Shown here piece by piece: positions 7,450 through 32,858 of a stretch of 64,000 nucleotides of DNA. The stretch covers positions 1,959 through 65,958 of the forward strand of contig JBAYMS010000003.1 of the NCBI GenBank assembly GCA_041663425.1, in the 5' to 3' direction. This stretch comes from Candidatus Omnitrophota bacterium (lineage in GTDB: Bacteria; Omnitrophota; Gorgyraeia; 2-01-FULL-45-10). The notes under the pieces are model-generated. The model searched no databases and was not told where the DNA came from. It worked only from the letters and a program-made list of their open reading frames with translations. Made by a program: the position numbers and the translations under genes. Within the stretch, counting starts at the first letter, position 1. Each line of letters begins with the position of its first letter.

Positions 7450-7492
7450 TGCTTGGAAACTAACTATTTTATACTTTAATTGGCTGGCCTCA

Positions 7493-7564
7493 CTCTCGCG
7501 AGCCGCTTGGCGGAAGCTGCGAGAGCGAAGACCAACCTACTACCGGGGTGGCACCACGGTAGTA
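7493..7564. terminator. Two intergenic stem-loops between the gene A stop and the gene 3 promoter. They may be a terminator or other RNA structure.
   Basis: CTCTCGCGAGC..(12-nt loop)..GCTGCGAGAG at 7493-7525. TACTACCG-(11-nt loop)-CGGTAGTA at 7538-7564, followed by TTTT on the plus strand. On the minus-strand transcript no clean U-tract follows either stem. Confidence 0.3.
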
Positions 7565-22500: not shown

Positions 22501-25500
22501 TCCGGCAGCCATATATTCGCCGCAGCCTGTGAAATTATTTTCTGAGCTTTTTCAAGATGCGCTTTTGCCGGAGAGAAATCTCCGAGTTCAAATATCGCGC
22601 GCGCCATATCAAGAGCTGCCTTATAAGCTTTTTCTCTGGCGGCCTTCTCCTTTTTGTCGATCTTACCGGCCTTATTAAATTCATCAATAGCTTTTTGGGT
22701 AAGCAATTCAAAAACGGCCGTCTTGTCCGCTTCTTCCGGATACTGCAGAAGGAGCCTTGATTCCTTCAGCACCGTTTCAACATCCTGTGCATCCCTGATA
22801 TTTTTTGTATGTTCAGCTATATTATCCCTACACTCCTCTATCCTCTGGATCAGCCTCGTAAGAGCGGGGCTATTTTCGTCTATCTGCACGCCAAGGACAG
22901 GCTTAACCCTGCATATATTAGCCACTATAGCAGAAGCTTCTCCATATCTGCGTTCGGCGATTTTCGACTGTGCTTCCGCCAGCAGTCCCTGAACCTTTAA
23001 AAGACGCTCTTCTGCAATTTTCTGCTTCCGCTCTTCCATTATGCTGCCCAAAGCGCTTAAGGCTTCGTCTATATTCCTTCCATCTATAGAAGGATCGCGA
23101 AGGGCTTCGCCCGCATAGATACACCAGCCGGCATCCTCTCCGGCAATTTTAGCTGCACGATCCCCTTGGTTCCTACCCAGAAGTGCCTGTGCGGTAACGG
23201 AAGCTCCTTCGAAATTACTGTCTTTATATTGTTTTTCAAATTTCTCCCATTGCGCAACAGCAGCCAGTATTTCATCTCTTAATGGACCGAGAATACTTGC
23301 AGCATCAGCTCTGGTATTCATAAGTTCCGCGGCATTTTTATACAACGCCGATTTATATAACGAGTCTACGGTAGACTTATACGCATCCGCGCTAAGTTCT
23401 TTTTTTATAGACGAAAGAAAAACACGCATCTTATCTTTTAATTCGCCTTTTACTTTTTCCGAATGGGATAGATCTGACAACGCTATATATACTTTATTCC
23501 CTTTTTCATTCAATCCTATTTCGGCAGCAAATTCGGCTATGCGCATCACCCTAGCGACATCTTCCTTATTATCTATTTTTATCTCTCCACTGGCTATTTT
23601 TTCTAAGTACCCTATTATTCTGGAGAAATCTAAAGAACCGGAAAGCACGGACAAAATATTGCATATGATATGCATTGAATCCTGCGACAAGGGCTCATCG
23701 GACTCATTCAGGAGAAGATCCGTCAGCATATCTACTATTTTCTGGGCCCACTCGTCTGGCAGTAATTTTATGAGCATCGGATAAGAAAATCTGCTCGAAC
23801 CATCCGCCCTTCTGCTGTTTACTACGTTCCTTCTATTGCCATATTCTTTCCCTTCAAAGGCTATCGCATCCTTCAAACATTTTTCTGCTGCCCGAACGTC
23901 CCCTTTCGCATTAAAAGCAATCGCGCCCACTACGTTCATCTGAAAAGCCGTTTCATATCCTTCGTTTTTAAGCGCCATATCCACAGATTCGTTAAGCACT
24001 TCTACGGCATCATCATTGCGGCCTGCAAAAACATCCATAAGCATATGCTGCAAAGTAATATTTTCGCGCCTTTTTTCGGAAACAACTTTATTTATAAACC
24101 CTCCGGATATTTTAGACATAGCCTCGGCCTCACTAAACCTGCCCTCACTTTTATACATATGTGCCAGATTCTGGAGTAAAAGCATATTAAGTAAATTTAC
24201 TTCGTCGTTTTCGGTAGGATAATATTGCTGATTGACGGCAATGACTTCTGCTAATTTTTTAAAGTTATCCCGGTCTTCCAGAATATAAGCCCAAAACGCC
24301 ATGGGGACGCTCTCTGACATCATATTATTTTCTACTATAGGGGGGGTGTAAACAGTTACTGCATTTCTGATAGCTGCATAAATATCAGGATTATGAATAG
24401 CCGCAACGAATGCCGCATTTATATCTATTCTGGATATAGCGTCAAGAACATCCCTTGCCGGCGACACAACCGTTCCGTCTTCCTCAGTCCAGCCATGGTT
24501 TTTTACCATTTTACTTATATTGTCCGACCACACACCCCAGATGTAATCAGCTTTCTCAATATCGGCTTTCTCTCCTAAATACTGGAGAGCCATAGCATAG
24601 CTAGTCAATACATAAAGATCGTCGGCTGAAATCCTTACAACCCCCTTACTTCTTGCAAAATCACGTAAAAAAGAAGTCCGCTCAAAGAACTTAACTGCCC
24701 GCCTATACATACCGGCATTAGAGGCGATTCTACCCAGCCTAGTATATAGTCTGTTAGCAATTCTAATAAGCTTTGAGTCGGTGGCCTTATCCAAAGTATC
24801 AAAGAAAGAACGAAATTCTGCGCGGCTCTTTTTATCTCTCTGTTTTGCAGTTTTTTGAACCTCATAGTTATTATTTATATATTCGAACATCGCTTCCAGC
24901 CTATTTTCAAACTCACGCTTTTTGGGCATATCCCATGAAATTATCTTGAAATGCTCCAGCACTACATCTAACAAATGGTCATGCTTTAGAGGCGTAAGAC
25001 CTATTATCCCGGAAGCTTTGACAATCCTTTGACCCGATTCATCCTGAAGGCATAACACTGAGACAGGGTCATCATTTTTTTCGGTAAAATACCTGCTGAA
25101 AATATCGGAGTATTCTTTCGCTATTAAAGCATAAGTCTCTTTTAAGCCGCGCCCACAGAAGTTGGATATTACAAAAACATTATCTAATTTCTTATCCGCA
25201 AGAGGATCAGCCGCAAGCTCTTTCCTTAAAAATTCATTTAAAGAGTTTGATAGCGGGATATTGCCGTAATGCTGTATGAGAGATTTTACCCAAAGCATTG
25301 CATCGCTACCGTCTCTCTCATTAAAAGCCGCTGCTATAACCTTAATCTTGGATAATATCTCCGGAGTAAGCTCCCTCTCTCTAAGTTTGTCATCCAGCAT
25401 TTTACGCATTCCTCTGGAAGGGTCGGATTTAAATTGCAGCCTGAAATTTATCATTGCAGCAAACGCATCGTCAGGGACAGCTCCCCAGCCATCTATGTCA

Positions 25501-28500
25501 CTTATTGTGTTATCAGCCTTATCCATAAGCAATTTACGCTGCTCGTTGGACAACCCCATGAAAATATCAAATGGTAATATAACACCTCCGGAAAGAAAAT
25601 AATTTTTATCATGTGTATGCATCCTTTTAAATAAATTTATAGCGGCAGCATCAGCTGCATCGGCCTTGCCAAGATGCGAAAGGATGTCTATATAGTATGG
25701 CAAAGCGCGTATGATCTGTTCGTCACTGCCTTTATCAAGAACAGCCGCACATCTTTTTTCCAGCGCTTCACTGAAATTACCTTTATTGCATTCCAGAGAA
25801 ATGCGGAACATCTCGCGTTCGGCATCCTGCTCTGCTGACGGCATCATCTTTGTATCGGACATTGCGATCTCCGCTTCCTCAAAAGTCTCCGACACCATCT
25901 TAAAAAGTTCGGCAGCGCGTGCATCATCTTTACCGCGTAATGAACAGGCTAATTTGATTGCGGCATTACAATACAAAGTGTCAATACGGCCATTGGCGGG
26001 ATAGTCAGCTCTCAATCTTTCCAGAAGGTCAAATGCCTTTGACACGTTTTTATCATCACCCATCATAAGGTCTGCCTCAGCGCATCTTTTAAGCATTTCC
26101 AGCTTGGTATAATTTCTCATACTATCATTTATCATATTTTTAGCGCACATCTCATCTGCGATCGCTACATATTTAGCGGCTATCTTTTTTATCTTGTCGG
26201 GGATGTCTTCTTCTGCGAATAAATATTGTCTGACGTAGATCTTCAGTAAAGCTTGGGCGGAATAAATACTTTCTACCGGGGGCGGCCCTTCCCTGTAGAC
26301 TATAAATTCCAGGATGATCCTGGAAGTCTCCCAGTCTCCCAACATATCTGACGCCATAGCCAATACTGCCAGCCATCCGGTCTTGGGAGATGGTTCCGAA
26401 ATTTTTAACAACAGATATTCATAGGCTAATTTAGCTAACTTCTCATAGTTCTTTTGTTCGACATACACATCTTTCATAGCCGCATAAATCTCCTCCAAAT
26501 CAGCCTTCATCTCACCGGTTCTTTTGCAAAATTCCAAAGCCTTAAGACCATACTCTTCTGCTTTCGCCAACAATATGCCAACTATTTCCGGCATCGTTCC
26601 TTTTTTAGCAATATTTAGAAGAATGCTCGGAAATAATACATAAAAAGCATCGCCTTTCCCCTGCTTACCCTCCAAGGCGTTGCCTTTTTTTGCCATTTGG
26701 CTAACTGCATAATCAAGCAATTCCTCAACCATTACCACTCTGCCTTCAGCCACAACACGGCGTAACATCACGGCAACTTCTTCTTCGAGTTCCGCCTGCC
26801 TCTGTGGTTTTATAGCATCATTGGCAATATCTGCAAAAAGTTTTGAAACAATCCGGTCCGCCTCCTGTTTGTCAGAGGCAGGCAATCCCCTACCACCACC
26901 TAAAGCAGCATATAGTAATATTTTTTTATTCTTAATGACATTTATCACGGCTACGATAACATTTACGCCTAGGTGCACAGCCATCGACACGAGGACTGCG
27001 AGATGATAATTTGACGAGAAGTAGCTTGCTGCAATTATTCCTGCAACACTTACTATGAATGGAGCGGTAAATACCCTGAAGATATAAGAACTGTAGTCTT
27101 TCGTTATTTCTGATATAGCTCTGCCTTTTATCGGAGGAGCGCGCTCATTAAATATGTGCAGTATGGTAAATATAGCCGCGGAGATTGAAAGCGCTGCAAA
27201 AGAATATCCTCCAGTAAACGCCATAGGCAGCCACACTTTAGCAGCTTCCTCAAATACAGGCGCATGAGCAAATGGTGAGTATCCCGAGCCGAATATGCCT
27301 GTAAGAGATCCGTATCTCGCTTTTACAGCATCCTTTGGAATAGTTAGTTCGGCTACAGGTACGAAACCAGCTTCCGGCGCCTTAGCCCTTGATGCAAAAC
27401 CGTTTTCAAACCCTTTTTGCCAATGAGCCATTAAATTTTCCACGGTAAGCCTTTTGCCAGCCTGCTCTATAAAATAGTTTTGAATATCTATGCTTGCATC
27501 CTGAATGTCCTCTTCTTCATTCCTCTCGATAAGTTTAGGAATGTAAGTCTTTGCAAGTTCTTCCGCCTCCTTCTGTGTATTCATAGTCACGAATCCGCCC
27601 AGATCAAAGAAGCAAACCTTTATGCGTTTATTTTTTTCCTGCGCCGATGGATCCAAACTAACCCCTGCATTAACAAGAAGCACGTCATGATTAAATATCC
27701 CGGCTTCCCACATGTCTTCAAGTGCTCTGAAATAATCATCAATAATAGTCTTTGCTGTTTCGACGTCTTCGCTACTGCCTTTAGAAAGAGTTTCCAGTAT
27801 ACCGTTTTCTACAAAACGTGACCCCACCTTCATATACTCCGCATCAAGCCCTACTATAGGCACTATTTCATCTTCTACATACACAGTACTCGGCGGCGAC
27901 CATATCATACGGTCACGGAAACGCGCGGGAACTTTCGGCCTTATATCGTCGATGACACGATTGGGTAAAGTCACTCCTTCAAGCTTGGTTGTAGGTACAA
28001 ACCTCGTCCCGAGATTATTAATAGCCGTCTGCGCACTAACCAGGCTCAGCTGTGCAACCGGGACATGAACTATAAATCCTCTGCAGTGATAAACATAACA
28101 AGGCGTTTCATCATTCGACCGTGGCCTGCTGATAAGCTCCCAGTCATTGTTTGCGAGTTCTTTATGTAAATCGGCTTTGACAGGTTGGCCTTCCCCAGTC
28201 ACACCTGCCATACCCACCGGGAAATGGGTGCTGGTTTTTTTCGAAAGCCACTGAGAGATTTTAACATTATAGAATGCATGGCCTAGAATGCCTGAAAATA
28301 CGGAGAGAGTCGTAGCAGGATAAACCGGCAGGAATAAAAATGGCACAATATTTATAACCCGCAAAGCTGCGCCTAGCAATGTTATTATATTTATCATATC
28401 CGGATGTGATGGTGAATACACAGGTCTGCCATCCTCTGTAATTATATAAACACCACGCCAATGCGCTGCCTGAAACAGAAAGATGCTTAGCAGGGCACCG

Positions 28501-31500
28501 AAAATAATACCCGTGGAGGTCCCAAAGCCTGTGCAGTCTGCCAGAAAAGCACCCGCGCCCACAAGAGCGCTGAAGAATAATTCTTCGAAACCGGCGAGGC
28601 CGGAGATCGCCCTGTATGACCATCCACGATCGTGCAGATAGTGAACAAGCCCGTCTCCTTCCACTGCGCCTCTCCATATAAAAGGCGTCATTCCTTCAGG
28701 AGCTATCGGCCCGCCCCCTTCCGGTTGCAGCTGTTCTGCTAATAACATTTTAGCCCATATTCTTCCGAGCAGTTCTACATATTCATCATCATTTATCGGG
28801 CCCACACTTTTCATGACGGAGGCAACTATATTGCTGACATCCCTTTGGATCCCTCTGGTATATTCATCTGCTATGCCCGGCCTTTTTTCTGCAGATATAA
28901 TATACGAAATGTCATCCGCGCCCATTTTATCTCCACGTATTCTATCAACTATTTTATCTATGACGGCTTCCTCTACGTTTACGGCAAGAACACTTAAAGG
29001 CTCACCAGGAAGAGCTGCTACGGATTTTTCTATCTGTCCAAGCAAACTTTCTATATCTTTTGACATCTGCACATCTTCCTGCGTAACTTTACCGCCCTGC
29101 GCTATGCAAAACTCTTTATTAAGGCCATCCAGCTTCACCCACAATTTCTTAGCATCTTTTTCGGAAATAGGAGAGTTTGCTATTATGAAATTTAAATCCT
29201 TAAAAAGCGATTTTATTACAGCCCGCGCTTCAGCACTCTTATCCACTCTGCGTCTTGAGATTAAAGAATCGCCCATAGCCACCTTAATATCAAAACCACT
29301 GACAAGCACTCCGGCGGTCTCAACAGCATTTTTTGGAGCCCCCCTTTCTCTCCTTTTAGCCCATGAGAATATACCTAAAATGCCGACGCTATACAGGAAA
29401 TTAAGCATAACTATTCTTATGCGCTCCGAGAATGTCCGCTTAACCGGCCTAACCTCTTTTTTTTGCTTTTCTGCAGGCGCGGGTACACCAGGCTTTTTTA
29501 TTTCCTCAGGCACTTTAATATCAGGAATATCCACGTCTACGGGCATCTGTGCTTTTTTCAGATCCGAAGGAGCTGTCACCGGCACTTGCCCCATACCTAT
29601 TTTTATCTTTCTAAGATACCAAGGCGTGCTGGTCGCCAGTGCCATACCAGCTTCTGCCGCAAGCATACCACCCATAAGAACGGCTATCATAAACCCTTTG
29701 ATTACGGGATTTATCCCGGCCGCAGGCGCGGCGGCTTTAGCAGTCTCTGGCACAACTTCTGCAGGCGCTAAATTTGAAGGAATAGTTGATGGTTGTTCTG
29801 ATACTACAGGAGCCTGAGGGATCACTGTCTCTGAAGTCTTTTCTACCGTTCCATGTATATTTGTTTTCGACCAGGATTCTGCCAGGAACGCTTCTACGCG
29901 CGCGCCGCCGCTACGGAATTTTGTTATCATTGCATCGCGCAAAGTTAAAAATTCATTCTTTCTGTTTTCAAAATCAGGCATTCTGTGAGCAGGGTTACTT
30001 TCGATCTGGGCAACCGGGTTATATTCACCCACTCGCAAGAAAGATTTTTGGAATGAAGTCGTCGGCATTGTGGAAATAATATGATAGCCGGCATATTCAG
30101 GACGGTTGAGCAAAAATTTCATAAGAGCCCTTCCTCTACCGCCTGCGTTTTCGAGATTGGGGAACGGGAAGAACTGGGTAAAAACGATGGTTTTATATTC
30201 CGTTATCGGATAGAAGTGAACCCGCACTTCATTTATCTGGATACCGTCTTTAAAAACTTTCAAATTCTTAAAAGATGCTCCGGCTTCGTTGTCAAACACA
30301 TCCTCGACAGTAAACTGATAACCCTCATTAATAAGATCATCTATGGTTAAGTCGCGCTTTTGCGGCAAAGGCTGGCTTGGCACCGGGACAATCTCTTCCG
30401 TCTTTTCCATCCCGGCCATTCTTCTGTTCACTTCTTCTCTTATGCTCTCTTTTAAATCACCTTCTATCCTTAAGATACGGCAGACAGTATCAAAGTCTTT
30501 ACCAGATGCTGCCATCCTGCTAGCAACGTCATCTACCAAGTCCTTAGTTTCTTTAAGCGATGATTGATACCGTGGTGCGGTGATTATTGATGCTTCAGCC
30601 CGGACAGCTTCCGCGAAGGCTTCAGGAGAAGGAGCGTCGCCCTGTGCAAAATTGGCAGTGGGAGCAATGTGCTGGTCGCCAATAGTGCCTTCATGTATCA
30701 CCGTGCTTTCATTTTGCGAGATCTGAATGGGTGATGTTTTTGTGGCCGGATGATGAGGTTTTATTATGCCTTTTTTAACAAGCTCATCATAGCTATCCTT
30801 ATAGCTTTCTATCCAGAGTTCCGCGATATTCCTTACGTTCTTACCCTGGCTTTTCGCCTGTTTTAAGTTTGTAACAATTATATCTTTTATAAAAGCTTCG
30901 ACCTTACCGGGATCCTGTATCGAATCCTTGAGATAGTCTTCTGTAAGCAGCTGATACTTGCCTGATTCCAGCTGTTCTTCGTAGTTCTCTTTCTTGTTGG
31001 TAAGTATGGCTACATATGGCCTCTCACCTTTGGATGCGTCAAACTTGGGGAGAATGACAAGGTATGAGGTGTCTTTGGCTTTGAGCAGATCGGATATGCC
31101 TCTTGTGTGATAACCGCCTGTGATAAGGGCGGCTACCGTCTGGCCTTCTTTGGTCATACGGCTTATAGTGTTGCTCAGTATAGTGTGATTACGTTTTTCA
31201 GCGGTGGTGTAGAAGCTTATGGCCGCAGGAATATTTGAGAAGATATTATTTAAATCGTAGCTGCCCTCTATGGGTATGTCATATTTTAAAGATTCTTCTT
31301 TGATGAAGCCTGATATGCATTCGGCATTACAGATAGCGATGTTCTTTTCCAGATACTCGAAGTCTGAATTGGTAAGCTTTAAGTCGAATATGTCGCGGAC
31401 GAAGCTTACGCACTTCAGTATGTCGTGCAGCTTCCTCTGGTCGGGGGAAGTGTAGAGTTTTTCTTTGATGGCGTCTTCTAAGTATTTGGCCTCTTCGAAT

Positions 31501-32660
31501 ATCTCGAGAAGGTCGATCGATTCGTAAAGTGTGATGTAATCTGTGTATGCTATGAGGCTTGAGTAGGGTTTGGGATCTATGGCGTAATCATTGGCAAGAC
31601 CCTGGAGGAATACGTAATACTCTCCCTGGCTTATCTTGCCCTGCTTGAACGATAAAGACTTTAAGACGAGCTTCTCAAGATCGGGTTTTGTGGCGGTCTT
31701 GCTTACTGTGTCTATGAGGGCATCTCGTTCCTTGTTGGCCTTATCGAATGATATGGATTTTTCTGAGGAGATGGATTCGACGAGCTTGGCAAGGTTGGGA
31801 TAATTCTCATAAGAGATGCCGAGCTTTTTGGCTAAAGAGTCTACGTAGTTCCATCTTGCCGTAAATGATACTGAGCCGTTCCTGCTAAGCACCGAGTTGG
31901 ACTCCAATGCCTTGAGATCTTTCGAATATACTTTGTCCTGTATAGCTTTTAATGTATTTAAAAGATTGTTGATATCGCCTGATACTTTTTGATTTATCTC
32001 GCAGATCTGCCTGAACTGCTCTACGTTCTCTTTGTAAAGCTCTTTGTTCTCAATGCCGTATAATGCTATGGGCTTATTGCTTGTGACGGAATAGAACTCT
32101 CCGGCAGACATCTTACCCTTTGCCATGAGGTATTTGGCGGTATTATTACGGATCTTTTCATCGGGGAATGTCTTCAATACGGATGTATCTATATAGCCTG
32201 AGGAACCTTCTATAGCTACTAACTTAAGATCATAGTTAGTGACTAATGAATCGAGAATGGATGATATTGATTCCTGGGCAGTTAATGATGAGTGGGCATC
32301 CTGGATGTTAATGATGGTTTTATTATCGCCGTTATTGCCATGATAGACTTCTTTTGTTACAGCGACATCTTTGGGAATAGCTATATTAGCATTTAAATTA
32401 TTATTATTAATAGGGGTCTTGACATTAAAAGACCCGTTTGATGGTTTTGACCAAACGGGTGTGCCTTCCTGCGCCCATACTATGTCCTGATTTATAAATG
32501 CGACTGTTAAGGTAATCGCCACCAGCCTGATCCACCACTTATTGTTAGGACTTTGCCAGTCCATGATAAGTGATTTCGAACCAAGCTCTTCGCGTATTGA
32601 GTCGCCGCCAGTTGAGACGACCTTTCCGCCTGTAAATGTCATGCTTTGCCAAGCCAACAT
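7578..32660 (-). CDS. Giant polytopic multidomain protein (8,360 aa), gene A
   Basis: A single uninterrupted 25-kb reading frame, which cannot arise by chance at this AT content. Recognisable domain motifs run along its whole length (see domain features). The stop TAA is at 7580-7578. The start is ambiguous: the first ATG is at 32660 with a weak AAAGGAAAA upstream, and alternative in-frame ATGs lie at 32642 and 32561 (MDWQSPNNKWWIRLVAITLTVAF signal-anchor). Confidence 0.9.
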   Translation of the reverse strand: MLAWQSMTFTGGKVVSTGGDSIREELGSKSLIMDWQSPNNKWWIRLVAITLTVAFINQDIVWAQEGTPVWSKPSNGSFNVKTPINNNNLNANIAIPKDVAVTKEVYHGNNGDNKTIINIQDAHSSLTAQESISSILDSLVTNYDLKLVAIEGSSGYIDTSVLKTFPDEKIRNNTAKYLMAKGKMSAGEFYSVTSNKPIALYGIENKELYKENVEQFRQICEINQKVSGDINNLLNTLKAIQDKVYSKDLKALESNSVLSRNGSVSFTARWNYVDSLAKKLGISYENYPNLAKLVESISSEKSISFDKANKERDALIDTVSKTATKPDLEKLVLKSLSFKQGKISQGEYYVFLQGLANDYAIDPKPYSSLIAYTDYITLYESIDLLEIFEEAKYLEDAIKEKLYTSPDQRKLHDILKCVSFVRDIFDLKLTNSDFEYLEKNIAICNAECISGFIKEESLKYDIPIEGSYDLNNIFSNIPAAISFYTTAEKRNHTILSNTISRMTKEGQTVAALITGGYHTRGISDLLKAKDTSYLVILPKFDASKGERPYVAILTNKKENYEEQLESGKYQLLTEDYLKDSIQDPGKVEAFIKDIIVTNLKQAKSQGKNVRNIAELWIESYKDSYDELVKKGIIKPHHPATKTSPIQISQNESTVIHEGTIGDQHIAPTANFAQGDAPSPEAFAEAVRAEASIITAPRYQSSLKETKDLVDDVASRMAASGKDFDTVCRILRIEGDLKESIREEVNRRMAGMEKTEEIVPVPSQPLPQKRDLTIDDLINEGYQFTVEDVFDNEAGASFKNLKVFKDGIQINEVRVHFYPITEYKTIVFTQFFPFPNLENAGGRGRALMKFLLNRPEYAGYHIISTMPTTSFQKSFLRVGEYNPVAQIESNPAHRMPDFENRKNEFLTLRDAMITKFRSGGARVEAFLAESWSKTNIHGTVEKTSETVIPQAPVVSEQPSTIPSNLAPAEVVPETAKAAAPAAGINPVIKGFMIAVLMGGMLAAEAGMALATSTPWYLRKIKIGMGQVPVTAPSDLKKAQMPVDVDIPDIKVPEEIKKPGVPAPAEKQKKEVRPVKRTFSERIRIVMLNFLYSVGILGIFSWAKRRERGAPKNAVETAGVLVSGFDIKVAMGDSLISRRRVDKSAEARAVIKSLFKDLNFIIANSPISEKDAKKLWVKLDGLNKEFCIAQGGKVTQEDVQMSKDIESLLGQIEKSVAALPGEPLSVLAVNVEEAVIDKIVDRIRGDKMGADDISYIISAEKRPGIADEYTRGIQRDVSNIVASVMKSVGPINDDEYVELLGRIWAKMLLAEQLQPEGGGPIAPEGMTPFIWRGAVEGDGLVHYLHDRGWSYRAISGLAGFEELFFSALVGAGAFLADCTGFGTSTGIIFGALLSIFLFQAAHWRGVYIITEDGRPVYSPSHPDMINIITLLGAALRVINIVPFLFLPVYPATTLSVFSGILGHAFYNVKISQWLSKKTSTHFPVGMAGVTGEGQPVKADLHKELANNDWELISRPRSNDETPCYVYHCRGFIVHVPVAQLSLVSAQTAINNLGTRFVPTTKLEGVTLPNRVIDDIRPKVPARFRDRMIWSPPSTVYVEDEIVPIVGLDAEYMKVGSRFVENGILETLSKGSSEDVETAKTIIDDYFRALEDMWEAGIFNHDVLLVNAGVSLDPSAQEKNKRIKVCFFDLGGFVTMNTQKEAEELAKTYIPKLIERNEEEDIQDASIDIQNYFIEQAGKRLTVENLMAHWQKGFENGFASRAKAPEAGFVPVAELTIPKDAVKARYGSLTGIFGSGYSPFAHAPVFEEAAKVWLPMAFTGGYSFAALSISAAIFTILHIFNERAPPIKGRAISEITKDYSSYIFRVFTAPFIVSVAGIIAASYFSSNYHLAVLVSMAVHLGVNVIVAVINVIKNKKILLYAALGGGRGLPASDKQEADRIVSKLFADIANDAIKPQRQAELEEEVAVMLRRVVAEGRVVMVEELLDYAVSQMAKKGNALEGKQGKGDAFYVLFPSILLNIAKKGTMPEIVGILLAKAEEYGLKALEFCKRTGEMKADLEEIYAAMKDVYVEQKNYEKLAKLAYEYLLLKISEPSPKTGWLAVLAMASDMLGDWETSRIILEFIVYREGPPPVESIYSAQALLKIYVRQYLFAEEDIPDKIKKIAAKYVAIADEMCAKNMINDSMRNYTKLEMLKRCAEADLMMGDDKNVSKAFDLLERLRADYPANGRIDTLYCNAAIKLACSLRGKDDARAAELFKMVSETFEEAEIAMSDTKMMPSAEQDAEREMFRISLECNKGNFSEALEKRCAAVLDKGSDEQIIRALPYYIDILSHLGKADAADAAAINLFKRMHTHDKNYFLSGGVILPFDIFMGLSNEQRKLLMDKADNTISDIDGWGAVPDDAFAAMINFRLQFKSDPSRGMRKMLDDKLRERELTPEILSKIKVIAAAFNERDGSDAMLWVKSLIQHYGNIPLSNSLNEFLRKELAADPLADKKLDNVFVISNFCGRGLKETYALIAKEYSDIFSRYFTEKNDDPVSVLCLQDESGQRIVKASGIIGLTPLKHDHLLDVVLEHFKIISWDMPKKREFENRLEAMFEYINNNYEVQKTAKQRDKKSRAEFRSFFDTLDKATDSKLIRIANRLYTRLGRIASNAGMYRRAVKFFERTSFLRDFARSKGVVRISADDLYVLTSYAMALQYLGEKADIEKADYIWGVWSDNISKMVKNHGWTEEDGTVVSPARDVLDAISRIDINAAFVAAIHNPDIYAAIRNAVTVYTPPIVENNMMSESVPMAFWAYILEDRDNFKKLAEVIAVNQQYYPTENDEVNLLNMLLLQNLAHMYKSEGRFSEAEAMSKISGGFINKVVSEKRRENITLQHMLMDVFAGRNDDAVEVLNESVDMALKNEGYETAFQMNVVGAIAFNAKGDVRAAEKCLKDAIAFEGKEYGNRRNVVNSRRADGSSRFSYPMLIKLLPDEWAQKIVDMLTDLLLNESDEPLSQDSMHIICNILSVLSGSLDFSRIIGYLEKIASGEIKIDNKEDVARVMRIAEFAAEIGLNEKGNKVYIALSDLSHSEKVKGELKDKMRVFLSSIKKELSADAYKSTVDSLYKSALYKNAAELMNTRADAASILGPLRDEILAAVAQWEKFEKQYKDSNFEGASVTAQALLGRNQGDRAAKIAGEDAGWCIYAGEALRDPSIDGRNIDEALSALGSIMEERKQKIAEERLLKVQGLLAEAQSKIAERRYGEASAIVANICRVKPVLGVQIDENSPALTRLIQRIEECRDNIAEHTKNIRDAQDVETVLKESRLLLQYPEEADKTAVFELLTQKAIDEFNKAGKIDKKEKAAREKAYKAALDMARAIFELGDFSPAKAHLEKAQKIISQAAANIWLPELMDDYFIAKAMMLSEAERDKKTRQGMHISQDAAAEFVFEQVSVRNGFLYVSGFKHPTTGQKIDIANFVRRGDSFKVRPAKSNQKELQPFFRVRYVGEDTIKFEQPKVRAGYDQLLMQWSYALNEGGKLVMVKDNVWQRQCEMLAAIIGRLKVSTKQSIGEGESFGLATTGRPIADRSLGILIDVPDKARASSIAEKRNAIERDLIEPLERMLKYPLDSEQKEALIDGLCEEIPITLIQGPGGTGKTMVITLLAKLIVENQKKRLRLLSQQNDALDNILKVLKDIDGLFSEQERSGVKQIPFARVGNNEDAVDPQILGDWENKAAALDNIIQKKAPNLVCGTVNGFFGDRDVRDRQELMKTDYVIVDESSRATVPESLWALWMFTNLSDVKKAIFVGDQDQLPAYGISKEDIAAALRDLSGQSEIVGWSEVGENRPLAEVFETDVVERFKISLLEKSLDLYDNTVFKVTRPSFRFLDIQRRSGTLVVDEENYFYNGRLKAGREETGTLVRDHYAISDGQGLTDKRIYQEKIVSSERARKDTADRGIVNIGEVSRVVTWVNWLLNERNLAPDDIAVVTPYSKQVDLVSDTLLEYSKLHAYLMAVEEGRDEGISTERREEMAGLLRAALITPNFDKQEFSGKDMVSIRLADLYKGQDLEKNRSAIIEFIRRPIGANARRVRNILRLGDHFLEEEELNNGLFSVKTVDSSIGSQWKAVVRSWVRSNDMGDVGFLARKEGWKRRNVLIGRAKARKEGLAMGAAIDIMSANTFINARDREVSAWAKHERAIFEKAEAYPQCQFFHDGKGTIIEGSQVGMIGKYDPVEGAVPQYNAPENRLTGLLKDRETGNVIDLSKADFVGRAPPRNIKTILDDIKKHNNPVANAIIDTYLKSFKGNVILLSHPGDPVISFATPDLIVISKTISDNPVALFHEIAHSAIMLNPGLVLAIKNYLKETAPDELEIMMLKAGSNPDKHVEEHYLLRALQWHVFGAEDRELTKKIKDPYASASDGVEPSAVASILYEKIAAKIAAFARHKTFTLEDLNNIIWALPKDQMPRDNNNKPRAFTDEEIFAILEKANNKLIESGVPVSDISRKYNMLDPIEYFRYQLIYHRQSLYMDMTHLDRLISNLPSFFNAADIKHGEFPVFLARDAITAAEFMKYYGMANGYSAAGALVYQPGMNNNAIVSDYVPDSGIEMVQRATEKAKAHSIQKLSNAVIGRGGRMPSKKTDAFYASYHPELVNEISAYFKDEMIKQWNSDPALAKEAELLFEQMRRSGITDHKDILLMDMAATGKTILYVKSVLEYFGRKNNVDINVRVFVGYSHDRKMLLPEVSLFNSEFDPAGRPFRDQDWPFYRSGRDSNTGDPVFTLNKDRAKILTHLYRSLKLYNTAIENSEKIDSLKAPVAGPAFINEPFFDFKEKILISIAGTAGAIAGVGTFVAIVAMHWEYDYITIALGSLFAFGGGAVALCFAFGLACGAMMAVEKILSHRKIEREKEPGQLQKDISGFFMKYSGLPEGTEKRISEVTAETERLANILNNKTPAAGMIPMVRAFLRSAEKTPLKWLGLTEHYQAFWEQLGFFALTQAFTLMNYFGGAIGAIFVSWAIFYAAHSIEVGGIRAPPTKSVFKIFAFNVLASLAVAPFDFSEILANPALINTPFGIIAILLNLLEFVLTTNIHHIANMDYLKSEKNVKQAESVSMWESTLVQREKFLSDKAAAPRQLHAPMLLLAAAGSPFAKGVNDAINAGIEFFKQNPGTSLALVLAVFILTDAIAFLSLFSRSAPVVRHDKAKTHMLRSVLITAIGLGAVYAFFNWPQVQDLINKAMKFFASPDKAGIPIMGVAGLIYFGKDNMDDGEEGGDLRTAKTIGIFGIIFLAACYFVPVVAVAIIAILGVALIFQVVSMVLRRGKALSDEEAAKLKDEANEYYQEGVLCLEGFKNAQHPDPAILSEAIVDFSKFIGILKRLREGRISLGSHFINMMLPLRSNKYAEIEELIADLKDKDWRDLCLSRLKEFDEIMLKAKFVNKIETHNKRSGFTTIEVSAALAMVGLITALTISVFFGISIIGPSEFLHSYLYFASGALPSWLVGSSLFASFGVAAVGMTYLRSGMLSKLVELVRGWIFGKTYPGTEAKSEKYFSERPSFKEMEILDKAIGCYREGMDDVKNVERSVKEGESVNVELLKDAIGSFKDSASDYLKFFDTFQHIPQTLSLLDSLADMEILFGDRGRVKALISRIGDPDEKALVMAEAKECGAIIKACRIAAEDLNKKHRALFRGRGVIGLILITVLAGAAYFISPVMAKVIFIGGFGAVASVILGSGSSDEEKIAAAKKIFEEAMRRFNTKSSYYKYVSDIKNSVSGASIGFAEDNNFYTSGSRILLPASARSADSRQITRLLIRAGMLQMVQKSETDPQKAKALIPQAKKIAGEIIARTTLAITAEEAEEVAGEAIGPVEKPAIAATDHKPEIKKPSKEDHKLIKALLTYGTEHGGDMSSSWTLYRDDLANTLDGVDRNSIARLLERLLSAYAVVCYSQSVQYADKGIDAETARNILSINAGRTLSEVMASYLNSSGPGDSGYGAKKVQLIYNSAGIDTDNVTDRIDGSVARRAFIETLKTLDVSAITASELRSASPSNAQSALGQATAALLTGPASQAEGGGGFAALLTESMKQRPLLLQGPAGAKAAGQSDRAIQEEYMTRLSSDQGYVVGATLLKEELIENIKKSKSLKDLKDKIRNNAERIKKNTKISYARRDKKTESGMSELSEWLLFMHSILIMPEVLKEFNKLIAREKLNISRLAKEAGLDVFAAEELKVVILFTVILKALYGDSAKPESRLVMSNLNNIAEERGLALFGVIGRYWVGVEQEISQGEDISDQAKTERAARAAAERRERIRQDSEDKAKDAAAQEIARREFAEMDAQRRAGTASETETRDEGVISEEAPREEVVFKPAEEVAPKPKSVERAPVEGQKVVAAKDASAVSIKKVSSSPLFEDFIERLRSFNLDKNTVLILDGDIEGAKKLIMEIVSGQVLDNEEYKKWHRTIMLSIHPDHRVKAPVSLAVSDELYKLLQPLLEFPATGKGWEMGMLGTSLKRIRAMLDAENAAKPTLLVTLQNAVTDMGERLKVLTEQFDSFDKRLKKVEDIAGQATPETPPSDQKGFTLIPVLTASIVAGLFIAYFIIPIAQLGFAQFLSDYIYFASNDIFSVLPYLANNGIGIGVLTMVATKTPALDKIYKPEYVMKNNLLLPDKTVIVLTPTKQKKLDEIKRDCQVSLSALRNITSVTDVIALEEKGELKAHLDNIFFIDETGIVLSVDDEKALKKAALLILTKSGNKEAHSKAYRLLIKVNVSFKYDIKELEMILGSIDAFKTQDDEFSRRIINIVALDLASLSEEWYVVYLNIVKRLDRYHKDGVPNMPKDMTFGIEIEMALLNSNNINDKNIAATNVLYDGLDRFATEEGLKDQGWVIKRDGANIEVTTGEGGLPNNREGFDRLNSGLRKIMEYVDRNRNGLMLSQGLHIHVGSKKKFSDDSLKALTFIGKSMEYCWSKFAYSHSILTFDEIALLGSSYTEKNETPFYFDTKYGRTHNVALNTFAPAPIKLGQDEYFGRMQLTIAVAMAIVHNALTRPQEFNIIHTGLPLYQHAIYTPDHSVLLRRHINHLFGNNPEGIIAFLQLFSDTGNTPPLPADMADEQDEAVEKFYRGQGLGLSYDEHIKKQGWNDEFIDKMRIGLDDKPAKELKNIAIDGVSIVENNTIDPGLRISAMNALHDSASRGQELAVTALNNLTPTLLSIIKNSAIDQDLRNSAMNGLHDSASRGYVPAIAALSSIVENSAIDQDLRKFAISILWNSASRGHAPAVTALNDLTPTLLSIVENSAIGWRLRIGAIGGLSDSASRGHAPAVTALNDLTPTLLSIVENSVIDQDSRRFTIDILSDSASRGHAPAVTALLSIIKNSAIDQDLRNSAMNGLRDSASRGYEFAVTALSEANRAGFVSTAMVIALALLTGLVFVSMPYLAAIAQFGFAQFLSDYIYFASGYFTAAAPYFANSAIGLGALMMIRAARDHSFQSGNEEGISDFIRDNEYLVRQIAQYYKKKYPYLSEDKLVSAGLHGNSNNSIGGLWKAAITFKPELGFQRSTWAAKIIHTEMRNHNVTERRRIARESVSSNIIDMEHLEDRPGDEAVREAEFVNRKVRLQQIFDELKISPRNREIFERAAQGQTPKEMVSVFHITSGQISEIIRKIISGAKDSLRQGDHGGYSRAGSAALPVILSITVIGILLAYFVIPIPKDIVILPHLINFISLYGVAVLGAAYSGRPSGAVSPIVQLDHGFFNEHFKFQEKLSMANRLVKQWGAMRFRYEGPEQKLANGVVLENGHDYVVKAALDSKNSDFIIRRQAEILANKINRNNINSSIPNLVGLLDVRGTTLEGEFYGDALITEYVKGESLWNYVSKNFVLHQEEGNDDKFIDLALAVLDAYKKTYFDNGCVAGDINPAGIVISPGESLHGADRVVFIDNDSVSPITDEVAADSYRKSILRNNYISVKRQREGRAAMPQDDVVALAIILGEMLNFRLDIEASHNRERSAKTPLIASKGDRVKILAEIFNRYINESDDRYAINGLIGEVQALKERPAAGLVIGVPKSVTPEQEEGLRESFRRSGLNIEVRRVDLPKELELKNNQAGIYIDETIGFSPEENERIVREAATMKLANDYGIILRMTSIDDAIRNEIDATIKALLPDLGKVDLEQAILNYLSARPNRTEMLERQERLAKLRRLIAERKSDEKVQAAYYKSVPRVKDMLSEDRPVVIVTSEKSNLSDPYTVDNINEAAEQGITTYIIGGDEVKTETEAFAILNSSGSIKDVGRVRFINKHDYASYDDMMGGIAKQMNTERKYIGVRAARGELLKENEKPGEEKFLELDEIDINGTKVLAAIHSYATLVSLVVSGEKELPPGVIDDLKMSGRFKFRPILPIGIEKEISSYRNAVLLLSSAA
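8900..9500 (-). other. Protein-kinase-like fold domain 2 (APH/Kdo-like)
   Basis: N-lobe YVVKAALDS (beta3 Lys) and RRQAEILANKI (alphaC Glu). Hinge LITEYVKGESL. Catalytic loop GCVAGDINPAGIVISPG (9061-9120; HRD replaced by AGD, with Asp and Asn retained). VVFIDNDS (DFG-like). Confidence 0.45.
9790..10290 (-). other. Sigma-70 family domain (region 2 + short linker + region 4; ECF/group-3-like) embedded between TM hairpins
   Basis: LVSAGLHGNSNNSIGGLWKAAITFKPELGFQRSTWAAKIIHTEMRNHN matches region 2.2-2.3 (G-L-x-K-A-x-x-x-F-x-x-x-x-G-x-x-F-S-T-[YW]-A-x-x-x-I). LKISPRNREIFERAAQGQTPKEMVSVFHITSGQISEIIRKIISGAKDSLRQ matches region 4 (L-x-x-R-E-x-x-[IV]-x-x-x-R-[FA]..T..EI[AG]..x.[IV][TS]..x[IV]..I...[AG]...LR). 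Coordinates 10100-10260 and 9835-9950. Confidence 0.65.
10590..11290 (-). repeat. In-frame tandem repeats (6 units of about 102-135 bp) encoding PBS-lyase HEAT-like repeats. Two adjacent units are nearly identical.
   Basis: The DNA unit ...CCGCGGGAGGCGGAGTCA..TCCTGATCGATGGCGCTGTTTTCAACAATAGATAATAATGTAGGTGTAAGATCATTAAGTGCGGTGACGGCGGGTGCGTGG recurs. Units 10780-10908 and 10909-11037 are about 95% identical. They encode DQDLRNSAMNGLHDSASRGHAPAVTALNDLTPTLLSIVENSAI repeated. Confidence 0.75.
11300..12300 (-). other. Glutamine-synthetase-like / GCS2-family (YbdK-type) carboxylate-amine ligase (amidoligase) module
   Basis: PKDMTFGIEIEMALLN (12251-12278) and LSQGLHIHVGSKKKF (11971-11994) match the GCS2/amidoligase G-[IV]-E-x-E and G-x-H-[IV]-H-V-G signatures. 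Spacing is about 95 aa. Confidence 0.4.
15590..18260 (-). other. Polytopic membrane region of gene A (about 10 predicted TM helices)
   Basis: Successive hydrophobic 20-25 aa segments, for example AGTAGAIAGVGTFVAIVAM, ITIALGSLFAFGGGAVALCFAFGLACGAMMAV, GFFALTQAFTLMNYFGGAIGAIFVSWAIFYAAH, IGIFGIIFLAACYFVPVVAVAIIAILGVALIFQVV, GVIGLILITVLAGAAYFISPVMAKVIFIGGFGAVASVILG. Confidence 0.6.
18633..18675 (-). other. PRPP-binding (type I phosphoribosyltransferase)-like motif
   Basis: DILLMDMAATGKTILYV resembles the PRTase loop VLLVDDVLATGGTL. Single motif. Confidence 0.2.
19707..19721 (-). other. HExxH (HEIAH) putative zincin metalloprotease active-site motif in gene A
   Basis: Context LIVISKTISDNPVALFHEIAHSAIMLNPG. 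A hydrophobic stretch followed by HE[IL]xH[AS] mirrors the HELIH site in gene B. Confidence 0.35.
20260..22430 (-). other. SF1B Upf1/Sen1/DNA2-like helicase domain (AAA_11/AAA_12)
   Basis: Motif I ITLIQGPGGTGKT (21762-21785). Motif II YVIVDESSRAT. Motif III AIFVGDQDQLPAY. Motif V IAVVTPYSKQVDLV. Motif VI VDSSIGSQWKAVVRSWVRSNDMGDVGFLARKEGWKRRNVLIGRAKA (20262-20325), compare Upf1 FQGREKDFIILSCVR...GFL.DPRRLNVALTRAK. There is an insertion of about 100 aa between motifs V and VI. Confidence 0.7.
22500..26900 (-). other. TPR-like / all-alpha repeat region of gene A
   Basis: About 1,400 aa of amphipathic helices with recurring A/L/Y/G/K patterns (for example AYEYLLLKISEPS, LYCNAAIKLACSLRGKDDARAAELF, AEFAAEIGLNEKGNKVYIALSDL). 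There are no TM helices. Confidence 0.5.
27540..28100 (-). other. Protein-kinase-like fold domain 1 (atypical; Kdo/RIO/APH-like)
   Basis: GIFNHDVLLVNAGVSLDPS (catalytic-loop-like, with H-D....N) at 27661-27695, then RIKVCFFDLGGFVTMN (DFG-like DLG) at 27597-27640. Confidence 0.4.
28260..28600 (-). other. CPBP/Abi (CAAX-protease-like) intramembrane metalloprotease motif triad within a TM cluster
   Basis: FEELFFSALVGAGAFLA (motif 1, EExxx[R to S]) at 28569-28589. SIFLFQAAHWRG (motif 2, FxxxH). FSGILGHAFYNV (motif 3, HxxxN) at 28266-28280. All three lie in predicted TM helices in the canonical order. Confidence 0.45.
29950..30330 (-). other. Possible GNAT-like acetyltransferase motif region
   Basis: TQFFPFPNLENAGGRGRALMKFLLNRPEYAGYHII (30121-30180) resembles GNAT motif A (R/Q-x-x-G-x-G/A). 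This is a single motif only. Confidence 0.25.
31000..32330 (-). other. N-terminal signal-anchor plus Tiki/TraB/GumN-like domain of gene A
   Basis: WWIRLVAITLTVAFI TM helix. Then IINIQDAHSSLTAQESISSILDSLVTNYDLKLVAIEGSSGYIDTSVLKTFPDEKIR ... ALITGGYHTRGISDLLKAKDTSYLVILPKF (GxxH..G at 31105-31125). About 40% identical to the gene 3 N-terminus by eye. Confidence 0.4.
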
Positions 32661-32745
32661 TTGGGAGATTTTCCTTTTTTTAAAGCTTTTCTACTTCTCT
32701 ACTGCAAACCTGTTAAAACTAACTTTTGTCATGTCTTACGTATAT

Positions 32746-32773
32746 ATTATATCATATAATACTAACTTGTCAA
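32746..32773 (-). promoter_or_regulatory. Consensus sigma-70 promoter for gene A (TTGACA-16 nt-TATAAT)
   Basis: Minus strand reads TTGACAAGTTAGTATTATATGATATAAT. The -35 element is at 32773-32768 and the -10 at 32751-32746. It lies in the 198-bp AT-rich spacer about 85 nt upstream of the gene A ATG. A weak AAAGGAAAA lies about 12 nt upstream of the ATG. Confidence 0.55.
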
Positions 32774-32858
32774 TATGCTAACTCTAACTTTTTGAAATAC
32801 TAATGCACTCATAAACTATTGATTTCCAAAATGTTATATAAACAAAATTTGGTTTTAT

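What the first reader, a model, noticed from the sequence alone, without database searches (positions are those of the whole stretch)
28260..28600. CPBP/Abi (CAAX-protease-like) intramembrane protease motifs in a TM cluster of gene A
Motif 1 (EELFFS), motif 2 (FQAAH) and motif 3 (HAFYN) occur in successive predicted TM helices in canonical order. Motif 1 lacks the usual Arg, and the spacing between motifs 2 and 3 is longer than typical. An intramembrane protease inside the same chain as HExxH motifs and a sigma domain fits a self-processing model.
Basis: partly seen in the sequence, partly recalled or inferred. Interest (0 to 1): 0.55.

Follow-up and report, generated by a model that had tools for sequence, protein, structure and literature searches.

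The report
Hidden Rce1-like protease modules in giant gene
The flagged motifs are real and strictly conserved: they mark one of three small four-helix membrane modules inside an 8,360-residue bacterial protein. The modules look like very divergent relatives of the CAAX/Rce1 (CPBP) membrane proteases, so they are candidate cutters of these giant proteins, but they fail the standard database threshold and no cutting has been shown.

Summary
EELFFS (aa 1359), FQAAH (aa 1396) and HAFYN (aa 1461) lie in an 8,360-aa minus-strand ORF (7578..32660), on helices 1, 2 and 4 of a confidently modelled four-helix module (pLDDT 91.5).

Family-level evidence still supports a remote CPBP relationship:
- An exhaustive search found homologues, mostly in large Omnitrophota proteins. 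At about 30% identity, the 11 invariant columns include E-E, F...H and H...N.
- PF02517 is the top Pfam hit for the family consensus (20.7 bits against a 22.4 cutoff) and for two members.
- hhalign against 31 genuine CPBP proteins gives 60-79% probability (P about 1e-5 to 1e-4) with all motifs in register. Shuffled controls score far lower.

Weak points: Foldseek finds no Rce1 match, the motif-1 Arg is absent, and the module has only four helices. The "HExxH plus sigma domain" context is weak, and self-processing is untested.

Verdict: a divergent, unannotated CPBP-like variant in a new architectural setting. It is probably an intramembrane glutamic protease; its substrate is unknown.

The parts
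7578..32660 (-). Gene A: uninterrupted 8,360-aa ORF that contains all three CPBP-like modules
28236..28700 (-). Module D1 (aa 1321-1475), the flagged domain. It has two short N-terminal helices, four long helices, and a beta-hairpin after helix 2.
   Evidence: Homologue boundaries. AF2 pLDDT 91.5, pTM 0.85.
28581..28586 (-). D1 motif 1: E1359-E1360 (EELFFS). Invariant in the family; aligns with E140/E141 of MmRce1 through the CPBP reference profile. No Arg at +5.
28461..28475 (-). D1 motif 2: F1396...H1400 (FQAAH). F and H are invariant; H aligns with H173 of MmRce1.
28359..28361 (-). R1434: invariant Arg in the middle of helix 3. It is family-specific and may stand in for the missing motif-1 Arg (inference).
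28266..28280 (-). D1 motif 3: H1461...N1465 (HAFYN). H and N are invariant and align with H227/N231 of MmRce1.
27366..28169 (-). Soluble domain between D1 and D2 (aa 1498-1765). It has its own homologues (P0001, P0002, P0008, P0010, P0013) and only a weak AceK-kinase-like Pfam match (16.9 bits).
26901..27305 (-). Module D2 (aa 1786-1920), the second CPBP-like module. Motifs: YSPFxHAP, EEAAKV (E1804/E1805, K1808), FTILH (F1831/H1835), NERAPP, HLGVN (H1896/N1900). PF02517 scores 19.2 bits (E 0.0015), below the 22.4 cutoff.
17436..17915 (-). Module D3 (aa 4916-5075), a paralogue of D1. Motifs: GMIP, FWEQ (E4957, Q4958), FYAAH, GGIRAPP, IHHIAN. The second Glu is replaced by Gln.

Best explanation
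The flagged stretch is the catalytic-motif core of a 155-residue, four-helix membrane module (aa 1321-1475 of an 8,360-aa protein). It is one of three paralogous modules in the same chain (also aa 1786-1920 and 4916-5075). These modules form small, unannotated families found almost only inside large or giant multidomain proteins of Candidatus Omnitrophota. They are remote, stripped-down relatives of the CPBP/Rce1 family of intramembrane glutamic endopeptidases.

By analogy with MmRce1, Glu1359 on helix 1 and His1400 at the end of helix 2 would hold and activate a water molecule. His1461 and Asn1465 on helix 4 would form the oxyanion hole. A peptide segment lying next to or within the membrane would then be hydrolysed.

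Shown here: the motifs, their invariance, their placement on helices 1, 2 and 4, and statistically supported but sub-threshold profile similarity to CPBP.

Inferred: catalytic activity, and the role of the invariant helix-3 Arg1434 as a replacement for the missing motif-1 Arg. [quoted passage not shown]
For: Motifs present and in frame.

The exhaustive HMMER search finds homologues of the module in 6 other proteins, 8 further copies in all, and of the second module in about 8 proteins.

Invariant columns in A1 are E39, E40, F76, H80, Y85, R114, H141, N145 plus three aliphatic residues. A2 likewise keeps E19, E20, F46, H50, H111 and N115 invariant.

PF02517 is the top Pfam family for:
- the D1 consensus (E 5.3e-4, 20.7 bits);
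- the P0016 copy (18.2 bits) and the P0012 copy (17.2 bits);
- the window's D2 (19.2 bits).
The register is consistent across these hits: EE at about profile position 19-20 and H/N at about 87/91.

Profile-profile comparison:
- A1 against 31 real PF02517 proteins: probability 60.4%, P 8.5e-5, all three motifs aligned.
- D1+D3 merged: 78.9%, P 1.6e-5.
- Controls: column shuffles 11.5 +/- 2.3 (max 19.9), reversed 12.9, against the observed 33.9.
- The reference profile itself hits MmRce1 4CAD at E 1.8e-8 with E140/E141/H173/H227/N231 in register.

Specificity: of 522 tiles of the three giant ORFs, the six best against the real-CPBP HMM all overlap D2 or D1.

Structure: the AF2 model is confident, and the motifs fall on helices 1, 2 and 4 with one helix between, as in Rce1 TM4/5/7 (PMC11980579 for the Rce1/MrtX layout).

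Family coherence: D3 links D1 and D2 (87% to A1; P 0.0034 to A2).
Against: - The window's own D1 sequence gives no PF02517 hit even at E <= 10. All family-level hits are below Pfam's gathering score.
- NCBIfam CPBP models give nothing.
- The A1 and A2 profiles do not hit 4CAD by sequence.
- Foldseek of both AF2 models against the PDB gives no significant match, and Rce1 is not among the top 50. BFVD gives none either.
- hhalign probabilities are 60-79%, not above 95%. A2 alone against CPBP is only 3.4% (P 0.013).
- The motif-1 Arg, part of the classical EExxxR signature, is absent.
- The module has four helices, against seven or eight in Rce1.
- The alignments are shallow (8-9 sequences).
- Nothing here shows proteolysis or identifies a substrate.
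- Membrane orientation is unresolved: the charge distribution is mixed for D1.
Confidence: 0.72

Rival explanations
1. The module descends from CPBP but is not a protease. It would act as a membrane scaffold, sensor or regulator, as reported for some bacterial CPBP-family proteins that work without catalysis (from my own knowledge: S. aureus SpdC, group B Streptococcus Abx1, bacteriocin immunity proteins).
For: - The motif-1 Arg is missing in all copies.
- D3 has E-Q instead of E-E.
- The module is reduced to four helices.
- The modules sit between signalling-type domains such as kinase-like, TPR and helicase.
Against: The residues that do the chemistry in Rce1 (first Glu, motif-2 His, motif-3 His and Asn) are invariant in all 19 sequences of the three sub-types at 25-35% identity. 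That is hard to explain without catalytic constraint. Non-catalytic CPBP relatives typically lose some of these residues (own knowledge).
Confidence: 0.13
2. The module is an independent four-helix membrane domain unrelated to CPBP. Its conserved Glu/His/His/Asn/Arg would serve another role, such as metal or ion binding or a different hydrolytic chemistry. The resemblance to CPBP would then be convergence plus hydrophobic composition.
For: - There is no above-threshold hit in Pfam or NCBIfam.
- Foldseek finds only generic helical bundles.
- Family-specific features are absent from CPBP: the R-[AG]-P-P loop with a beta-hairpin, the invariant helix-3 Arg and the N-terminal G-M-x-P-x-x-W.
Against: - Composition-preserving shuffles and reversal do not reproduce the hhalign score.
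- Four independent sequences plus one family consensus pick PF02517 as the top family out of 24,736, in the same register.
- The order, helix assignment and spacing of all three motifs match Rce1.
Confidence: 0.13
3. The three motifs co-occur by chance in a hydrophobic stretch and have no shared function.
For: One such ordered triplet is expected in about 10% of shuffles of an 8,360-aa protein. The window sequence has no Pfam hit.
Against: - The motif residues are the invariant columns of a family recovered from 1.84 billion representatives.
- The triplet occurs twice with identical motif 2-3 spacing (P(>=2) = 0.006).
- A third paralogue exists.
Confidence: 0.02

Closest known systems
CPBP / Rce1-like intramembrane glutamic endopeptidases (Pfam PF02517; MmRce1, PDB 4CAD; myxosortase MrtX)
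   Same: - Glu-Glu on one helix, F-x-x-x-H on the next, and H-x-x-x-N two helices later.
- All four catalytic residues of MmRce1 (E140, H173, H227, N231) have invariant counterparts (E1359, H1400, H1461, N1465).
- Spacing is similar: 41 and 61 here, against 33 and 54 in MmRce1.
- PF02517 is the top Pfam family for the consensus and several members.
- hhalign probability is 60-79%.
(PMC11980579)
   Different: - All scores are below Pfam's gathering threshold, and the window copy itself has no hit.
- The motif-1 Arg is absent.
- The module has only four helices and no peripheral TM1-3/TM8.
- It has an extra invariant Arg in helix 3 and an R-[AG]-P-P loop with a beta-hairpin after motif 2.
- It occurs as one to three internal modules of 2,000-8,000-aa multidomain proteins, not as a free-standing protein of 200-300 aa.
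- Foldseek does not retrieve 4CAD.
PrsW-type intramembrane proteases (Pfam PF13367; from my own knowledge, the same Pfam clan as PF02517)
   Same: The second module type (D2) has E-E-x-x-K. One member hits PF13367 at E 0.0019, and the D2 consensus hits it at E 0.085 over profile positions 43-176 of 196.
   Different: The hits are sub-threshold and less frequent than those to PF02517. There is no conserved linkage to a sigma or anti-sigma domain.
Archaeovorin-type giant proteins of Omnitrophota (West-Roberts et al., bioRxiv 10.1101/2023.11.21.568195)
   Same: - Tandem giant ORFs with many TM clusters.
- A divergent SecA_DEAD domain in gene B, plus TPR, helicase and kinase-like domains.
- Homologues of the modules come from Omnitrophota MAGs.
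- That paper proposes post-translational cleavage of the giant proteins.
   Different: That paper attributes possible cleavage to C39 and S8 peptidase domains. It excluded TM regions from structure prediction. Neither it nor the 2026 Omnitrophota preprint mentions CAAX, CPBP or Rce1. The window's source organism could not be identified.

Membership tests
CPBP / Rce1-like (PF02517) | Score at or above Pfam's gathering threshold (22.4 bits) for PF02517 | tested here: not met
   - Window D1: no hit at E <= 10.
- D1 consensus: 20.7 bits; members 18.2 and 17.2 bits.
- Window D2: 19.2 bits.
CPBP / Rce1-like (PF02517) | Motif 1, EExxxR, on a TM helix | tested here: not met
   E-E is present and invariant, on helix 1. 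The Arg at +5 is absent in every D1 copy. D2 has Lys/Arg at +4. D3 has E-Q. So the Glu pair is met but the full motif is not.
CPBP / Rce1-like (PF02517) | Motif 2, FxxxH, on the following TM helix | tested here: met
   F1396 and H1400 are invariant in A1, at the end of helix 2. The same holds in A2 and D3.
CPBP / Rce1-like (PF02517) | Motif 3, HxxxN/D, on a later TM helix with one helix in between (TM7 in Rce1 and MrtX) | tested here: met
   H1461 and N1465 are invariant, on helix 4 with helix 3 between. The layout is as described in PMC11980579.
CPBP / Rce1-like (PF02517) | Significant profile-level sequence similarity to bona fide members, with the motifs in register | tested here: inconclusive
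   - hhalign against 31 PF02517 proteins: 60.4% (P 8.5e-5); merged D1+D3 78.9%; D2 3.4% (P 0.013).
- The observed scores exceed all 150 column-shuffle controls.
- All values are below the customary 90-95%.
CPBP / Rce1-like (PF02517) | Fold similarity to MmRce1 (4CAD), with the catalytic residues converging on one cavity | tested here: inconclusive
   Foldseek against the PDB gives a best E of 0.7 (D1) and 5 (D2), and 4CAD is not in the top 50. The crude depth estimate is consistent with convergence.
CPBP / Rce1-like (PF02517) | Glu/His-dependent endopeptidase activity | not testable with these tools
   This needs expression and mutagenesis.
PrsW-protease (PF13367) | Score at or above the gathering threshold (23.5 bits) | tested here: not met
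   The D2 consensus scores 12.8 bits (E 0.085), and one D2 member reaches E 0.0019. D1 gives no hit.
   The match is 15.2 bits (E 0.019) at aa 7492-7528 only, with no r3 or r4 hit. There is no homologous stretch in the other module-bearing proteins.
   There is a single HExxH at aa 4314, with 0.13 expected by chance. No Pfam family hits aa 4200-4450 at E <= 1.

The most novel reading that the evidence does not exclude
The three built-in CPBP-like modules are the enzymes that cut the giant protein, and perhaps its two giant neighbours, at juxtamembrane sites into separate membrane-anchored pieces. The giant gene would then be a bacterial self-processing polyprotein cleaved by intramembrane glutamic proteases embedded in its own transmembrane clusters. 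Repeated copies in homologues (three in P0004; two each in P0003 and P0011; at least two in P0014) and the conserved G-M dipeptides on both flanks of the module would mark local cis-cleavage units.
Probability: 0.2. Interest if true: 0.85.

Novelty: new variant of a known kind. Interest (0 to 1): 0.58.

Why it matters
Whether the giant proteins of Omnitrophota act as single chains or are cut into pieces, and by what and where, is stated as an open question in the paper that described them. [quoted passage not shown] It left transmembrane regions out of structure prediction, which is exactly where these modules sit.

A conserved, repeated, Rce1-like catalytic module inside the TM clusters gives a concrete and testable candidate. 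Point mutants of one Glu and two His residues in a 155-residue module would show whether it cleaves. It would also extend the CPBP superfamily to a minimal four-helix, Arg-less form that current Pfam and NCBIfam models do not detect. None of the homologues is annotated as CPBP.

Tried and rejected
- Direct Pfam and NCBIfam scans of the flagged region: no hit.
- BLASTP of module 1 against module 2: nothing.
- phmmer and profile searches of the PDB with the window sequences, A1 and A2: no relevant hit.
- Word-indexed homologue search with the region and with A1: one timeout and two empty results. Only the exhaustive search worked.
- Foldseek against PDB and BFVD: no significant match.
- NCBIfam on the consensus sequences: nothing.
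- A PDB search with the synthetic CPBP bait: nothing.
- hmmsearch of the real-CPBP HMM on the whole giant proteins: only a -0.4-bit domain at D2. Tiling gave a specific ranking but low scores.
- Internal paralogy between genes A and B by BLASTP: none.
- 'GM' cleavage-site idea: the dipeptide flanks the module in the window and its homologues. Overall it is not clearly enriched (19 observed against 12.5 expected in gene A), so it is kept only as a note.
- Sigma linkage: gene A's sigma-like stretch has no counterpart in the other module-bearing proteins.
- P0007 as a stand-alone module gene: rejected, because its locus shows frameshift-type ORF fragmentation.
- Source organism and close relatives: no match in genome contigs or metagenome contigs.
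- Membrane orientation from charge bias: mixed for D1, cytoplasmic-loop-like for D2; left unresolved.


Full report
**Setting**

The window carries three tandem ORFs on the minus strand:
- gene B, 32859..63818 (10,319 aa);
- gene A, 7578..32660 (8,360 aa);
- a third ORF of at least 2,457 aa that starts just downstream of gene A and runs off the window start.

The finding lies in gene A at aa 1354-1467.

Other Pfam content of gene A is an SF1-helicase pair AAA_11/AAA_12 (aa 3603-3980) and TPR repeats. Gene B has a SecA_DEAD domain and TPRs. This is the make-up described for 'Archaeovorin'-type giant proteins of Omnitrophota (bioRxiv 10.1101/2023.11.21.568195).

**The observation**

EELFFS (aa 1359), FQAAH (aa 1396) and HAFYN (aa 1461) are present in frame at the stated coordinates.

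An ordered triplet EE / [FYW]xxxH / Hxxx[ND] with CPBP-like spacing is expected 0.11 times per shuffle of gene A. It occurs twice, the second time at aa 1804/1831/1896 with the same 65-residue offset between motif starts. P(>=2) is 0.006.

Pfam gives no PF02517 hit on the flagged region, even at E <= 10. NCBIfam gives none either. The second motif cluster does get a sub-threshold PF02517 hit: 19.2 bits, E 0.0015, against a cutoff of 22.4.

**Homologues**

The word-indexed search found nothing. An exhaustive phmmer search of 1.84 billion representatives with aa 1290-1930 returned 19 proteins. Local iteration sorted them into three groups:
- copies of the flagged module, D1: three in P0004, one each in P0005, P0012, P0015, P0016 and P0018;
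- copies of the second module, D2: P0003 x2, P0007, P0009, P0011 x2, P0012, P0014, P0019, and a split copy in P0005;
- homologues of the soluble domain between the two modules.

Most are proteins of 1,500-7,400 aa from Candidatus Omnitrophota MAGs, and one is from Endomicrobiales. None is annotated as CPBP.

**Conservation**

At 27-36% identity to the window copy, the invariant columns of the D1 alignment are E1359, E1360, F1396, H1400, Y1405, R1434, H1461 and N1465, plus three aliphatic residues. In D2 the invariant columns likewise include E-E, F...H and H...N. This rules out chance. It also shows that selection acts on exactly the residues that carry out catalysis in Rce1. There, Glu plus His activate water, and His plus Asn form the oxyanion hole (PMC11980579).

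**Link to CPBP**

- Pfam. PF02517 is the top family for the D1 consensus (E 5.3e-4, 20.7 bits) and for two D1 members (18.2 and 17.2 bits). The register is the same as in the D2 hit.
- Reference set. I fished 31 genuine PF02517-labelled proteins with a synthetic bait and aligned them as A3. A3 finds MmRce1 (4CAD) at E 1.8e-8, with E140/E141/R145/H173/H227/N231 in register.
- Profile-profile comparison of D1 against A3. Probability is 60.4%, P 8.5e-5, score 33.9, with EE, FxxxH and HxxxN aligned. 150 column shuffles give 11.5 +/- 2.3 (max 19.9), and the reversed profile gives 12.9.
- Profile-profile comparison of D2 against A3. This is weaker (P 0.013, score 21.0) but still above all 150 shuffles.
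- Specificity. Among 522 tiles of all three giant ORFs, the six best against the A3 HMM all overlap D2 or D1.

**A third module**

Inspecting all hydrophobic segments of gene A revealed a third module at aa 4916-5075: GMIP...FWEQ...FYAAH...GGIRAPP...IHHIAN.
- It has an orthologue in P0005 (E 8e-31).
- It matches the D1 profile at 87% (P 3.8e-6) and D2 at P 0.0034.
- It keeps the first Glu, but the second is Gln.
- Merging D1 and D3 raises the match to real CPBP to 78.9% (P 1.6e-5).
- MAFFT aligns all 19 D1/D2/D3 sequences with the Glu, F...H, R-[AG]-P-P and H...N in shared columns.
- No further copies exist in the window.

**Structure**

AF2 with the 8-sequence alignment gives a confident model of D1 (pLDDT 91.5, pTM 0.85). 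It has four long helices carrying E39/E40, F76/H80, R114 and H141/N145, and a beta-hairpin after helix 2. D2 is modelled less well (pLDDT 73) but also as four helices.

The helix assignment (1, 2 and 4) reproduces the TM4/TM5/TM7 pattern of Rce1. A crude depth estimate puts the conserved residues in the same half of the bundle.

Foldseek finds no significant PDB or BFVD neighbour, and 4CAD is not in the top 50.

**Differences from canonical CPBP**

- There is no motif-1 Arg.
- There are only four helices.
- There is an invariant Arg in helix 3 and an R-[AG]-P-P loop.
- The modules are embedded, one to three per chain, in very large multidomain proteins.
- In P0005 and P0014 the D2 module is even split by an insertion of about 200 aa after the R-A-P-P loop.

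The single HExxH (aa 4314; 0.13 expected by chance) has no peptidase-family support. The 'sigma domain' is a 15.2-bit Sigma70_r2 match with no counterpart in the other module-bearing proteins. Self-processing is therefore an inference from architecture only. It is nevertheless a reasonable one:
- CPBP enzymes cut next to membrane-embedded segments.
- The modules are repeated within polyprotein-like chains.
- The literature on these giant proteins explicitly leaves cleavage, and the responsible sites, open.
- Neither giant-gene paper mentions CAAX, CPBP or Rce1, and no paper in the library pairs CPBP with Omnitrophota.

**Verdict**

The CPBP interpretation is probably right at superfamily level (about 0.7), but formal family membership is not established. 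Protease activity is plausible, and self-processing is speculative (about 0.2). This is a divergent variant of a known enzyme kind in a new architectural context.

Noticed in passing
window 1-63818, minus strand: Three giant ORFs lie in tandem on one strand: 10,319 aa, 8,360 aa and at least 2,457 aa (the last runs off the window start). They are separated by a 198-bp AT-rich spacer (32661-32858) and about 20 bp. No paralogy between genes A and B is detectable by BLASTP.
   Followed up: partly
It has an orthologue in P0005 and bridges the other two module types.
   Followed up: yes
window 26901-27305 (gene A aa 1786-1920): A second CPBP-like module with an extra invariant Y-S-P-F-x-H-A-P box just before the E-E, and a conserved Y-A-[AT] about 20 residues after HxxxN. 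It is the only part of gene A that touches PF02517 directly (19.2 bits).
   Followed up: yes
P0005 aa 4248-4305 + 4513-4566; P0014 aa 5481-5566 + 5733-5785: In two homologues the second-type module is split by an insertion of about 200 aa immediately after the R-A-P-P loop. In P0005 the insert looks GNAT-like by eye. So the loop tolerates a whole inserted domain.
   Followed up: no
window 28206-28214 and 28686-28694 (gene A aa 1483-1485 and 1323-1325): A G-M dipeptide flanks the flagged module on both sides (PEGM|TPF before, PVGMAG after), and it recurs at both flanks in the homologues. 'GM' is not clearly enriched in gene A overall (19 against 12.5 expected). It could be a module boundary or a cleavage site; this is unexplained.
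   Followed up: partly
window 27366-28169 (gene A aa 1498-1765): The soluble domain between modules 1 and 2 has its own homologues (P0001, P0002, P0008, P0010, P0013). It gives only a weak AceK-kinase-like Pfam match (16.9 bits), so it may be a kinase-like fold.
   Followed up: partly
window 32472-32540 (gene A aa 41-63); third ORF start near 7450-7559: Gene A, the third ORF, and homologues P0012, P0014 and P0015 share a signal-peptide-like N-terminal leader ending ...A-F-x-N-[QN]-D-I-x-W-A (FVFSNITFA in the third ORF). This suggests a common export route for these large proteins.
   Followed up: partly
window 10077-10187 (gene A aa 7492-7528), followed by hydrophobic segments at aa 7640-7680: A sub-threshold Sigma70_r2-like stretch (15.2 bits) lies directly upstream of two hydrophobic helices. 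If real, it would be a membrane-tethered sigma-like domain. NCBI annotates homologue P0004, which has three module copies, as a sigma-70 family protein.
   Followed up: partly
window 50916-51416 (gene B aa 4135-4301): Gene B has a divergent SecA_DEAD domain (E 1.9e-12), the hallmark reported for Archaeovorin-type giant proteins of Omnitrophota.
   Followed up: no
window 20721-21854 (gene A aa 3603-3980): An SF1-type helicase/ATPase (AAA_11 E 1e-19, AAA_12 E 5e-18) is embedded in gene A.
   Followed up: no
L004 4158-7930: The apparent 185-aa stand-alone copy of the second module (P0007) sits in a chain of overlapping same-strand ORFs in shifting frames. It is most likely a frameshift-fragmented long gene in an error-prone assembly.
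   Followed up: yes
gene A aa 502-697 vs P0005 aa 1-194; gene A aa 110-402 vs P0018 aa 82-366: P0005 (7,316 aa, Omnitrophota MAG) shares the N-terminal region and all three module types with gene A, and is its closest overall relative found. P0018 (1,999 aa) shares the N-terminal domain and module 1, and sits beside hemerythrin, LexA and RecA genes.
   Followed up: partly
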